Assembly: GCF_044647545.1 (NCBI RefSeq)
Contig: NZ_CP172818.1
Length of the DNA stretch: 64,000 bases
From: Escherichia coli
Lineage (GTDB): Bacteria; Pseudomonadota; Gammaproteobacteria; Enterobacterales; Enterobacteriaceae
Reading direction: 5' to 3' (one strand)
Positions within the stretch are counted from its first letter, which is position 1, and every line of letters starts with the position of its first letter. This document shows, one piece after another, positions 48,801-51,800 of this stretch. Position numbers: made by a program.

Positions 48801-51800
48801 TCCCGGAAAGTAACCTGGCGGTGATTTCGGTCAACGGTCTGTTTGCCGCTCGCGAAGCGCGTCAGGCGCTGCAAAACGATCTCAACGTGATGCTGTTTTC
48901 CGATAACGTCTCAGTTGAAGATGAACTGGCGCTCAAGCAACTGGCCCACGAAAAAGGGCTGCTGATGATGGTTAGACTGTGGCACGGCGATTATCAACGG
49001 CGCGGCGCTCTGTTTTGGTAACGCCGTGCGTCGCGGCAACATCGGTATTGTTGGCGCATCCGGCACCGGCAGTCAGGAGTTGAGCGTCCGCATTACTTAA
49101 TTTGGCGGCGGCGTTTCGCAACTGATCGGCACCGGCGGGCCAGCCTGAGCGAGAAATTGGCGGCCTGATGATGCTCGACGCCATCGGGATGCTGGAAAAC
49201 GATCCGCAAACTGAAATCATTGCGCTTATCTCCAAACCGCCTGCGCCTGCGGTGGCCCGCAAAGTGCTGGAACGTGCGCGCGCCTGCCGCAAGCCGGTGG
49301 TCGTCTGCTTCCTCGATCGTGGCGAAACGCCAGTGGATGAGCAGGGGCTACAGTTTGCCCGCGGCACCAAGAGGCAGCGCTAAAAGCGGTGATGCTCTCC
49401 GGCGTGAAACAGGAAAATCTCGACCTGCATACGCTTAACCAGCCGTTGATTGCGGATGTGCGTGCGCGTCTGCAACCGCAGCAGAAATACATTCGTGGCC
49501 TGTTCTGCGGCGGCACGCTGTGCGACGAAACCATGTTCGCGGTGATGGAAAAACATGGCGATGTCTACAGCAACATTCAGCCCGATCCGGAATTCCGCCT
49601 GAAAGATATCAACCGCAGCATCAAACACACCTTCCTCGACTTTGGCGATGACGACTTCACCAACGGCAAGCCGCACCCGATGATTGACCCCACCAACCGC
49701 ATCAGTCGCTTGATCGAAGAGGCGCGCGATCCAGAAGTGGCGGTGATCATGGATTTTGTGCTCGGATTTGGATCGCATGAAGATCCGGTCGGCTCCACCA
49801 TCGAGACGATCAAAGAAGCGAAAGCGATCGCCGCTGCCGAAGGACGCGAGTTGATCATTCTCGCCTATGTGCTGGGTACCGATCTTGATACGCCATCGTT
49901 AGAACAACAAAGCCAGATGCTGCTTGATGCCGGAGTGATTCTGGCGAGCAGCAGCACCAATACCGGATTGCTGGCGCGTGAATTTATCTGCAAAGGGGAG
50001 GAAGCCTGATGAGCCAGTCACTGTTTAGCCAACCATTGAACGTTATTAACGTCGGCATCGCCATGTTTAGCGATGACCTGAAAAAGCAGCATGTAGAAGT
50101 GACTCAACTCGACGGGACGCCGCCGGGGCAGGGCAATATGCAGGTGGTGCAGGCGCTGGATAACATTGCCGATCTTGCCGCTGGCGGACAAAATCGCCGC
50201 CGCTAACCAGCAGGCGCTGGAGCGTATTATCCAGTCGCATCCGGTGCTGATTGGTTTTGATCAGGCGATTAACGTGGTGCCGGGCATGACGGCGAAAACC
50301 ATTCTTCACGCCGGGCCGCCGATCACCTGGGAAAAAATGTGCGGCGCGATGAAAGGCGCGGTCACCGGAGCGCTGGTGTTCGAAGGACTGGCGAAGATCT
50401 CGACGAGGCGGCTGAACTGGCGGCTTCCGGGGAGATCACCTTCTCGCCGTGTCACGAGCACGACTGTGGGATCGATGGCGGGTGTTACCTCGGCCTCGAT
50501 GTTTATGCACATCGTAAAAAACAAAACCTACGGCAACATCGCTTATACCAACATGAGCGAGCAGATGGCGAAGATTTTGCGTATGGGCGCTAACGACCAG
50601 AGCGTGATTGACCGCCTGAACTGGATGCGTGATGTGCAGGGACCAATACTGCGCGACGCGATGAAAATTATCGGCGAAATCGATCTGCGCTTAATGCTGG
50701 CGCAGGCGCTGCGGATAGGGCGATGAGCGCCATAACCGCAATAACGCCGGGACGACACTGCTGATTCAGGCGCTGACGCCGGGGATTATTCAGGCGGGTT
50801 ATTCCGTCGAGCAACAGCGCGAAGTGTTTGAGTTTGTCGCCAGCAGCGACTACTTCTCCGGCCCGACGTGGATGGCGATGTGTAAAGCGGCGATGGATGC
50901 GGCGCATGGCATCGAATACAGCACCGCGGTCACCACCCATGGCGCGTAACGGCGTCGAGTTCGGCATGCGGGTCAGCGGCCTGCGGGGTAATGGTTCAAC
51001 CGGCCCGGCGCAGCAGGTGATCGGCCCGATGTTTGCCGGTTATAAGCCGGAAGATTCGGGGCTGGATATCGGCGACAGCGCCATCACCGAAACCTACGGT
51101 ATTGGCGGATTTGCTATGGCGACCGCGCCCGCTATCGTCGCGCTGGTGGGCGGCACGGTGGAAGAAGCTATTGATTTCTCCCGTCAGATGCGCGAAATCA
51201 CCCTCGGTGAAAACCCCAACGTCACCATTCCGCTGCTCGGTTTTATGGGCGTGCCGTCGGCAATCGACATCACCCGCGTGGGTAGCAGCGGCATTCTGCC
51301 GGTGATCAACACCGCCATCGCCCATAAAGATGCGGGCGTCGGCATGATTGGCGCGGGCATTGTGCATCCACCTTTTGCCTGCTTCGAGAAAGCCATTCTT
51401 GGCTGGTGCGAACGTTACGGCGTCTGACCTACATGTTCATGCCGGATGCGGCGTGAACGCCTTATCCGGCCTACGAATGGCGCAAGAATCTGTAGGCCTG
51501 ATAAGCGTAGCGCATCAGGCATTTGTCACCATTGCCGGATGCGGCGTGAACGCCTTATCCGGCCTACGAATGGCGCAAGAATCTGTAGGCCTGATAAGCG
51601 TAGCGCATCAGGCATTTGCCACCACTGCCGGATGCGGCGTGGACGCCTTATCCGGCCTACGAGTGGCGCGAGAATCTGTAGGCCTGATAAGCGTAGCGCA
51701 TCAGGCATTTGTCACCATTGCCGGATGCGGCGTGAACGCCTTATCCGGCCTACGAGTGGCGCGAGAATTGTAGGCCTGATAAGCGTAGCGCATCAGGCAG

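What the first reader, a model, noticed from the sequence alone, without database searches (positions are those of the whole stretch)
51441..51800. Four tandem 93-bp BIME units between yahG and yahI
A compact array of REP pairs with few substitutions between copies; such arrays can act as transcript stabilisers or attenuators and as IHF or gyrase binding sites, and they generate spurious ORFs in the six-frame track. Copy number here could differ between strains.
Basis: seen in the sequence. Interest (0 to 1): 0.3.

Follow-up and report, generated by a model that had tools for sequence, protein, structure and literature searches.

The report
Known REP/BIME-2 repeat array (yahH)
This is the well-known array of eight small palindromic REP elements (four 93-bp pairs) between the E. 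coli genes yahG and yahI. It is real, identical to the K-12 reference, varies from 0 to 5 pairs among strains, and is ordinary.

Summary
Window 51440-51799 holds 3.9 head-to-tail copies of a 93-bp unit (96% match). Each unit is a Y-type REP on the + strand, a 16-17-nt linker, a Z2-type REP on the - strand and a 13-nt linker, giving 8 REPs in alternating orientation. This is the published definition of a BIME-2 array.

The whole 421-bp yahG-yahI spacer is 100% identical to E. coli K-12 MG1655, where the literature calls the array REP23 and the ORF inside it yahH. About a quarter of 5,426 complete E. coli genomes carry this 4-unit allele. Other strains have 0, 1, 2, 3 or 5 units, and O157:H7 has 5. 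Related Escherichia species also have a Y-Z2 pair at this junction.

Variation falls in the linkers, not the REP hairpins, and shows no codon-position bias, so the ORFs are best read as by-products of a 93 = 31 x 3 nt period.

The likely role, inferred from the REP325 array and not tested here, is a transcript barrier and partial attenuator between yahG and yahI, and a probable gyrase site. IHF binding is unlikely because no IHF consensus is present.

The array is already known and of low interest. Separately, the window itself is an odd patchwork with heavily frameshifted yah genes.

The parts
51440..51799 (.). Whole BIME-2 array: 3.9 x 93-bp units, i.e. 4 Y-Z2 REP pairs (8 REPs)
   Evidence: TRF period 93, 3.9 copies, score 664; direct-repeat families; 100% identical to K-12 MG1655 339756-340115
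51441..51474 (+). Y-type REP, unit 1 (GCCGGATGCGGCGTGAACGCCTTATCCGGCCTAC)
   Evidence: Pattern scan; identical to the published consensus; DNA hairpin -11.3 kcal/mol, z -3.6
51492..51520 (-). Z2-type REP, unit 1 (GCCTGATGCGCTACGCTTATCAGGCCTAC on the - strand)
   Evidence: Pattern scan; exact match to the published Z2 query sequence; hairpin -8.6 kcal/mol, z -3.65
51534..51567 (+). Y-type REP, unit 2
51585..51613 (-). Z2-type REP, unit 2
51627..51660 (+). Y-type REP, unit 3 (loop variant GTGGAC)
51678..51706 (-). Z2-type REP, unit 3
51720..51753 (+). Y-type REP, unit 4
51770..51798 (-). Z2-type REP, unit 4. It is preceded by a tail-to-tail linker 1 nt shorter than in units 1-3, the same short form seen in single-unit alleles.
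51475..51491 (.). Tail-to-tail linker (GAATGGCGCAAGAATCT), repeated at 51568-51584, 51661-51677 and 51754-51769. It is the most variable part of the unit.
   Evidence: 12.8% minor-allele cells per nt here, against 2.0% in Y and 0.3% in Z2, over 21 distinct units from 10 genomes
51521..51533 (.). Head-to-head linker (ATTTGTCACCATT), repeated at 51614-51626 and 51707-51719
51425..51427 (+). yahG stop codon (TGA); 13 nt separate it from the first REP stem base
   Evidence: Sequence; ORF 50828..51427; K-12 annotation
51849..51851 (+). yahI start codon. yahI is frameshifted in this window, with the first stop at codon 18.
51453..51773 (+). Equivalent of the K-12 'yahH' (b0322) ORF, lying entirely within the array. 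Best read as a by-product of the repeat.
   Evidence: K-12 annotation 339769-340089. The 93-nt period equals 31 codons, and two + frames stay open. No family reaches its cut-off. Variable columns fall 6/9/10 across codon positions 1/2/3.
51495..51564 (-). Rfam RF02564 (naRNA4) match on the strand antisense to the operon; further matches at 51588-51657 and 51681-51750
   Evidence: 78, 72.4 and 78 bits against a gathering score of 59.5; + strand scores 52.7-53.9 bits, below gathering

Best explanation
This is the known non-coding BIME-2 array of E. coli, called REP23 in the literature and annotated as 'yahH'. It consists of four tandem 93-bp units, each a Y REP and an inverted Z2 REP joined by short linkers, in the spacer of the co-directional yahD-E-F-G / yahI-J gene cluster. 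It most likely arose from a single ancestral Y-Z2 pair and grew or shrank by whole units. The mechanism would be unequal recombination, replication slippage, or the REP-associated tyrosine transposase TnpA-REP, which cleaves and recombines BIMEs in vitro. Its most likely present-day effect is local. When the array is transcribed as part of the yah mRNA, its eight GC-rich hairpins would block 3'-to-5' exonucleases and so protect the upstream yahEFG message. They would also partly attenuate transcription into yahI-yahJ, in part through Rho, with strength depending on the number of units. On DNA it is a probable gyrase binding and cleavage site. It is not an IHF site. Because the first hairpin starts 13 nt after the yahG stop codon, it may also slow termination of YahG translation. 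The composition, the conservation pattern and the copy-number polymorphism are shown here. The regulatory effects are inferred from other REP arrays. In this particular window the flanking genes are frameshifted, so any operon-level role would be moot.
For: Anatomy: 8 REPs alternate in orientation, Y on + and Z2 on -, with a 93-bp period. The sequences match the published Y and Z2 forms and the published BIME-2 definition: y plus z2, tandem copies, short linkers. Identity: the spacer is 100% identical to K-12. The literature names this locus REP23/yahH and describes five repeats in EHEC. Structure: each REP folds as a hairpin (z about -3.6), and the 441-nt RNA folds at -200.5 kcal/mol against -161.9 for shuffles (z -6.1). 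99.4% of stem cells are paired over 21 distinct units, with two compensatory G-C to A-U changes. Constraint: variation is 12.8% and 6.3% per nt in the linkers against 2.0% and 0.3% in the REPs, with no third-position bias in the yahH frame. Dynamics: alleles with 0, 1, 2, 3, 4 and 5 units were verified by sequence. A Y-Z2 pair at the same junction occurs in E. albertii, E. whittamii, Escherichia sp. E1V33 and a Pseudocitrobacter MAG; P. faecalis has a Y-Z1 pair followed by a Z2. Mechanism by analogy: REP325, a 5.8 x 100-bp array between the co-directional yjdM and yjdN, stabilises the upstream mRNA and attenuates the downstream gene about 8-10-fold. Its partial Rho dependence was seen only with the full array. 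Gyrase cleavage sites are enriched in BIME-2, mostly in the y REPs. TnpA-REP cleaves and recombines BIMEs in vitro. REPs fewer than 16 nt from a stop codon lower translation, as cited. No intrinsic terminator lies in 51200-52000.
Against: No expression, 3'-end, Rho or gyrase data for this locus were available. The two supplementary files held for the gyrase Topo-seq paper do not mention yahG, yahH or yahI, and that paper says only a subset of BIME-2 elements is cleaved. The 2026 preprint reports a large spread between loci and no general half-life effect of REPs. Ribosome footprints over the EHEC yahH ORF have been reported. B2 strains do without any REP at this junction, so the array is dispensable.
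Confidence: 0.9

Rival explanations
1. The array is, in addition, a real protein-coding gene. yahH would encode a repeat protein, giving a locus with functions as DNA, as RNA and as protein.
For: Neuhaus et al. 2016 report ribosome footprints over the 465-nt EHEC ORF X002 = yahH (RPKM 56, coverage 0.61) and argue that it is translated. K-12 RefSeq and PGAP annotate a YahH protein. Two + frames are open across the array.
Against: The open frames are a mechanical result of a stop-free 93-nt (31-codon) unit. The ORF's length and frame change with copy number and with the 1-nt deletion in the last unit. The locus has 0 to 5 units among strains, and PGAP annotates nothing in the 1-unit and 2-unit alleles. 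Variable sites fall 6/9/10 on codon positions 1/2/3, so there is no coding signature, and the constraint tracks the REP hairpins. No Pfam or NCBIfam model reaches its cut-off. No mass-spectrometry peptide is listed for X002 in the table quoted. Footprint reads in a five-fold repeat cannot be placed uniquely.
Confidence: 0.05
2. The array is a source of naRNA4-like nucleoid-associated small RNAs that bind HU and bridge cruciform DNA to condense the chromosome.
For: Three matches to Rfam RF02564 (naRNA4) score above the gathering threshold (72-78 bits against 59.5). Qian et al. 2015 proposed this role for REP325 RNAs and 3C contacts among REPs.
Against: The matches that pass are on the - strand, antisense to the yah genes. 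The sense strand scores 52.7-53.9 bits, below gathering. The only - strand promoter-like site is at chance level (1 found, 0.5 expected) and depends on window-private changes. The model mainly recognises the shared Y hairpin, and its second hairpin is 7 nt longer than Z2. A 2026 preprint that includes the original senior author finds that REP325 and naRNA4 do not measurably compact the nucleoid and that REP-REP contacts are absent in Hi-C.
Confidence: 0.03
3. The four copies are an assembly artefact, meaning a duplication or mis-join of a shorter array.
For: The window shows signs of an unusual or poor-quality source: a patchwork of K-12-identical and ST131-identical blocks, dense frameshifts and long homopolymer tracts. 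Short-read contigs do break inside this array, as in Escherichia sp. E1V33.
Against: The array and its spacer are identical to the finished K-12 MG1655 reference and to many independent complete genomes. The units carry distinguishing substitutions in the same order as in K-12.
Confidence: 0.02

Closest known systems
E. coli K-12 REP23 / 'yahH' (b0322) BIME array between yahG and yahI
   Same: It is the same locus and the same allele. All 421 nt of the spacer are identical, and the same ORF is present.
   Different: Only the context differs. In this window the neighbouring yahD, E, F, G, I and J carry 4-12 frameshifting indels each.
BIME-2 family (Gilson/Bachellier nomenclature, as summarised by Ton-Hoang et al. 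2012)
   Same: y and z2 REPs in alternating orientation, tandem copies, short linkers, no L motif, and copy number variable between strains.
   Different: Gyrase cleavage, the family's characteristic property, has not been shown for this particular array.
REP325 array (yjdM-yjdN), source of naRNA4 (Rfam RF02564)
   Same: A tandem array of Y plus Z-type REP pairs between two co-directional genes. The unit sizes are similar (100 against 93 bp) and the Y hairpin is nearly identical.
   Different: REP325 has 5.8 units, and its second REP is 36 nt long (Z1 length) against 29 nt here. Its orientation relative to transcription is opposite: the mRNA strand there reads iY-linker-Z, which in the yah array is the antisense strand. 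REP325 has experimental data and this array has none.
K-12 prpB-prpC BIME array
   Same: A second four-unit array with the same 93-bp period, about 10 kb away in K-12.
   Different: It is built from different REP variants (Z1-length plus GTCGGATG-type). It is absent from this window and from strain Ecol_881.

Membership tests
REP (repetitive extragenic palindrome / palindromic unit) | A 30-40-nt imperfect palindrome with the conserved GTAG/CTAC tetranucleotide at the foot of the stem | tested here: met
   All 8 elements end in CCTAC (GTAGG on the other strand) and fold as hairpins with an internal mismatch, for example GC opposite TT in Y. The definition is quoted.
REP (repetitive extragenic palindrome / palindromic unit) | Extragenic location | tested here: met
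   The array lies between the yahG stop (51427) and the yahI start (51849). The only overlapping annotation is the doubtful yahH ORF.
BIME-2 | Composed of y and z2 REPs | tested here: met
   The four + strand copies match the published Y consensus in three cases and differ by 1 nt in the fourth. The four - strand copies match the published Z2 sequence GCCTGATGCGCTACGCTTATCAGGCCTAC exactly.
BIME-2 | REPs in alternating (inverse) orientation, in multiple tandem copies | tested here: met
   Strand order is + - + - + - + -, with four units of period 93.
BIME-2 | Short linkers; no long L linker carrying an IHF site (the BIME-1 feature) | tested here: met
   The linkers are 16-17 and 13 nt. None of the five WATCAANNNNTTR matches in the window lies in the array.
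BIME-2 | Number of tandem units at a locus varies between strains | tested here: met
   0, 1, 2, 3, 4 and 5 units were found in E. coli complete genomes.
BIME-2 | Bound and cleaved by DNA gyrase in vivo | not testable with these tools
   The literature shows enrichment of cleavage sites in a subset of BIME-2 elements. This locus is not mentioned in the supplementary text held.
Rfam RF02564 naRNA4 | Covariance-model score at or above the gathering threshold (59.5 bits) | tested here: met
   Three - strand matches score 72.4-78 bits; + strand matches score 52.7-53.9 bits and fail.
Rfam RF02564 naRNA4 | Expressed as an RNA that associates with HU and the nucleoid | not testable with these tools
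   The passing strand is antisense to the operon, and there is no promoter evidence above chance. The function itself is disputed.
Protein-coding gene yahH | Sequence constraint on the reading frame (codon-position bias, conserved frame and length) or membership of a protein family | tested here: not met
   Variable columns fall 6/9/10 on codon positions 1/2/3. Frame and length change with unit number and a 1-nt indel. No family reaches its cut-off.

The most novel reading that the evidence does not exclude
The array is kept intact by selection or by sequence homogenisation, independently of its neighbouring genes. In this window the 421-bp spacer has no difference from K-12, while the genes on both sides carry about 1.5-2.4% private changes, including dozens of frameshifts. 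That would point to a chromosome-level role, such as a gyrase or topological site, rather than a purely operon-level one. A related possibility is that the open frame through the array (yahH) is truly translated.
Probability: 0.05. Interest if true: 0.45.

Novelty: already known. Interest (0 to 1): 0.1.

Why it matters
It matters little as a discovery. The locus is in the K-12 reference, is named in the literature (REP23/yahH) and belongs to a repeat class described since the 1980s-90s. It has three practical uses. First, it explains the 'YahH' protein calls and the six-frame ORFs in this spacer as repeat by-products. Second, it documents a clean natural allelic series of 0 to 5 units at one junction inside a gene cluster. 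That series is a ready-made test of the recent proposal that REP arrays act as copy-number-dependent stabilisers and attenuators. Third, it shows that the IHF label does not apply to this BIME class.

Tried and rejected
CRISPR-like array: rejected, because the 'spacers' are 13-17 nt, are themselves repeated, and the repeats alternate in orientation.

Intrinsic terminator: none found in 51200-52000.

IHF site / BIME-1: no consensus match in the array.

Protein families for the three longest array ORFs: only sub-threshold matches, inflated by the internal repeats.

Source of the window:
- A 44-mer carrying window-private changes is absent from the GTDB species representatives.
- No RefSeq complete E. 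coli genome shares the private indels; the best matches are 97.6-98.5%.
- The source could not be identified.

Papers not held in the library: Liang, Rudd & Deutscher 2015 and Liang & Deutscher 2016. [quoted passage not shown]

Supplements: no supplementary text is held for Ton-Hoang et al.. The gyrase Topo-seq supplements do not mention the locus.

My first REP search pattern had the wrong spacing and found nothing. It was replaced by the regex scan.

The covariation test has little power, because most units are identical and both compensatory changes come from a single unit, SC477_u1.

Full report
**1. Observation**

- Tandem Repeats Finder reports a single array at 51440-51799: period 93, 3.9 copies, 96% matches, no indels, score 664.
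- The repeat finder gives three in-register 143-nt copies 93 nt apart (97-100% identity). It also gives four exact copies of a 31-mer spaced 93, 93 and 92 nt.
- Aligning the four units shows only a handful of substitutions. Most are in the linkers. Unit 3 has one change in the Y loop, and unit 4 has a 1-nt deletion.

**2. Anatomy**

- A REP pattern scan of the whole window finds exactly eight REPs, all inside the array.
- Four 34-nt elements lie on the + strand: GCCGGATGCGGCGTGAACGCCTTATCCGGCCTAC at 51441, 51534, 51627 and 51720.
- Four 29-nt elements lie on the - strand: GCCTGATGCGCTACGCTTATCAGGCCTAC at 51492, 51585, 51678 and 51770.
- The first equals the published E. coli REP consensus. It is one base from the Y sequence listed.
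- The second is an exact match to the published Z2 sequence.
- The elements face tail-to-tail across a 16-17-nt linker and head-to-head across a 13-nt linker.
- Each REP folds as a hairpin on its own: -11.3 and -8.6 kcal/mol as DNA, z about -3.6.
- The 441-nt transcript folds at -200.5 kcal/mol, against -161.9 +/- 6.3 for shuffles, z -6.1.
- There is no intrinsic terminator in 51200-52000 and no IHF consensus in the array.

**3. Identity**

- The flanks align to annotated K-12 MG1655. yahG ends at 51427 and yahI starts at 51849.
- The entire 421-bp spacer is identical to K-12 339744-340164.
- K-12 annotates yahH (b0322) at the equivalent of 51453-51773, and PGAP calls a shorter 'protein YahH' in the same frame.
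- The literature already describes this locus. The y-ome review lists 'yahH (filled with REP23 sites)'.
- Neuhaus et al. 2016 describe the five-repeat EHEC version as a REP/BIME element, and note that yahH had been removed from the EHEC annotation because of its repeat structure.
- By the definition quoted (y plus z2, multiple tandem copies, short linkers), this is a BIME-2.

**4. Population and phylogenetic behaviour**

A query made of the two flanks alone matched 5,070 of 5,426 complete E. coli genomes. In the evenly spaced sample of 57 informative rows, the spacer lengths correspond to the following unit numbers:

| Units (Y-Z2 pairs) | Rows out of 57 |
|---|---|
| 0 | about 8 |
| 1 | about 21 |
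| 2 | about 4 |
| 3 | about 2 |
| 4 | about 17 |
| 5 | about 5 |

- I confirmed each class by reading the sequence: O157:H7 strain 2159 has 5 units, 1504D004 has 3, SC477 has 2, and 14EC029 and AVS0786 have 1.
- The ST131-like strain Ecol_881 has none. It carries an unrelated 57-nt segment with a small hairpin instead.
- 1,321 records match the K-12 array plus 50-nt flanks at 99% or better. The 4-unit allele is therefore common.
- Single-unit alleles carry the 1-nt-shorter tail-to-tail linker seen in unit 4 of the window. This suggests that the promoter-distal pair is ancestral and the others were added upstream of it.
- A Y-Z2 pair at the same junction is present in E. albertii, E. whittamii, Escherichia sp. 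E1V33 (at least 3.5 units, contig broken inside the array) and a Pseudocitrobacter MAG.
- Pseudocitrobacter faecalis instead has a Y-Z1 pair followed by a Z2.
- The element therefore predates E. coli diversification, while its copy number is lineage-specific.

**5. What is constrained**

I aligned 21 distinct units from 10 genomes.
- Minor-allele density is 2.0% per nt in Y and 0.3% in Z2. It is 12.8% in the tail-to-tail linker and 6.3% in the head-to-head linker.
- 99.4% of stem cells are paired. Two stem pairs show G-C to A-U double changes, both in one SC477 unit, so the power of this test is low.
- Variable columns fall 6/9/10 on codon positions 1/2/3 of the yahH frame.
- The ORFs exist because the unit is 93 nt, or 31 codons, and lacks stops in two + frames.
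- The longest ORFs are 141, 123 and 60 aa. None reaches a Pfam or NCBIfam cut-off.
- The constraint is on the hairpins, not on a protein.

**6. Mechanism (inferred)**

The closest experimentally studied relative is REP325, a 5.8 x 100-bp array between the co-directional yjdM and yjdN.
- A 2026 preprint shows that REP325 stabilises the upstream mRNA and attenuates the downstream gene about 8-10-fold.
- Its partial Rho dependence appeared only with the full array, not with 2-4-hairpin fragments. [quoted passage not shown]
- Genome-wide, REPs between tandem genes bias expression toward the upstream gene.
- By analogy, the yah array of 8 hairpins in the same gene configuration most likely protects yahEFG message and limits read-through into yahIJ. 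Unit number would act as a tuning parameter.
- Gyrase cleavage is enriched in BIME-2 elements, mainly in the y REPs, and is independent of transcription. A gyrase site is therefore plausible here but untested.
- TnpA-REP cleaves and recombines BIMEs in vitro and is the proposed engine of unit gain and loss. No such gene is listed in the K-12 annotation of the region matching this window.
- The first REP stem begins 13 nt after the yahG stop codon. That is inside the '<16 nt' range reported to reduce translation (cited; the original paper was not available).
- Alleles with a 22-nt left junction (AVS0786, E. albertii) fall outside that range.

**7. Rfam**

- Three - strand segments match RF02564 (naRNA4) above the gathering score. 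The + strand matches fall below it.
- The match reflects the shared iY-linker-Z architecture. In REP325 that strand is the mRNA strand, whereas here it is antisense to the operon.
- I do not take this as evidence for an sRNA gene.

**8. Context oddities**

These are unrelated to the verdict but worth flagging. The window is not K-12.
- Positions 1-13,100 are identical to K-12, apart from 30 substitutions in the 1-2 kb bin.
- Positions about 24,345-46,900 are nearly identical to the ST131-like Ecol_881. That strain has no REPs at this junction.
- The ecp region is at best 98.3% identical to any complete E. coli genome.
- Positions 46,974-57,366 are K-12-like but carry 55 private small indels. 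There are 36 deletions and 18 insertions, and only 15 lie in homopolymers. They frameshift yahD, E, F, G, I, J, L and M; prpC and prpD are also hit.
- In contrast, yahK, yahN, yahO, prpR and the array spacer have no difference from K-12.
- The best natural matches for the flanks are only 97.6-98.5% identical. About 6-10 private changes would therefore be expected in the 421-bp spacer, and none is seen.
- There are also unusual homopolymer tracts (C17, A27, A11 and others).
- I cannot tell whether this reflects biology, a chimeric or low-quality assembly, or editing.
- None of this affects the identification of the array, but it weakens any evolutionary inference drawn from this particular window.

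**9. Verdict**

The feature is already known and of low interest.

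Noticed in passing
window 46974-57366 (yahD, yahE, yahF, yahG, yahI, yahJ, yahL, yahM) and 61301-63952 (prpC, prpD): Each of these genes carries 2-12 small frameshifting indels relative to K-12. 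There are 55 events in 46.9-57.4 kb (36 deletions, 18 insertions), mostly outside homopolymers. yahK, yahN, yahO, prpR and the BIME spacer have no difference from K-12. No complete E. coli genome shares the indels (best 97.6-98.5%). The indel-to-substitution ratio in yahE-G is about 1:1, which is unusual for natural decay.
   Followed up: partly
whole window: The window is a patchwork of lineages. Positions 1-13,100 are identical to K-12 MG1655, about 24,345-46,900 are nearly identical to the ST131-like strain Ecol_881, 13,100-24,300 are at best 98.3% identical to any complete E. coli, and 58,000-60,000 are again identical to K-12. The source genome was not identified.
   Followed up: partly
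window 61235-61251, 61277-61287, 28121-28147, 28154-28164, 26799-26808, 26905-26914, 21201-21209: Unusually long homopolymer tracts: C17, A11, A27, A11, C10, A10 and T9. The C17 tract replaces the sequence around the prpB stop codon that Ecol_881 has at the same place.
   Followed up: no
window 61235-61300 versus K-12 349573-350011: K-12 has a second four-unit BIME array, also with a 93-bp period but built from different REP variants, in the prpB-prpC spacer. This window and Ecol_881 lack it.
   Followed up: yes
L011 (E. albertii NBRC 107761) 3988-4176, - strand: A 162-bp tandem duplication carries the last ~45 nt of yahG, including its stop codon, together with one Y-Z2 REP pair. This looks like a BIME-associated duplication that captured flanking coding sequence.
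   Followed up: no
window 51888-51916, - strand: A promoter-like site (TCGACT-17-TATAAT, 10/12) points into the array on the antisense strand. Its perfect -10 is created by window-private changes in yahI. It is at chance level, with 1 found against 0.5 expected.
   Followed up: no
L007 (E. coli Ecol_881) yahG-yahI spacer: The REP-free allele carries an unrelated 57-nt segment with a small hairpin (CCTTCTCCC-TTTT-GGGGAGAAGG) in place of the array and its immediate flanks. The alleles therefore differ by replacement, not by a clean insertion.
   Followed up: no
window 25700-28300: The region next to the fdeC/eaeH-like adhesin gene is covered only 38%, at 91.8% identity, by any complete E. coli genome. 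It contains the A27 and C10 tracts.
   Followed up: no
window 1000-2000: A cluster of 30 substitutions relative to K-12 falls at the position of IS1C in an otherwise K-12-identical 13-kb block. This is consistent with a different IS1 isoform.
   Followed up: no
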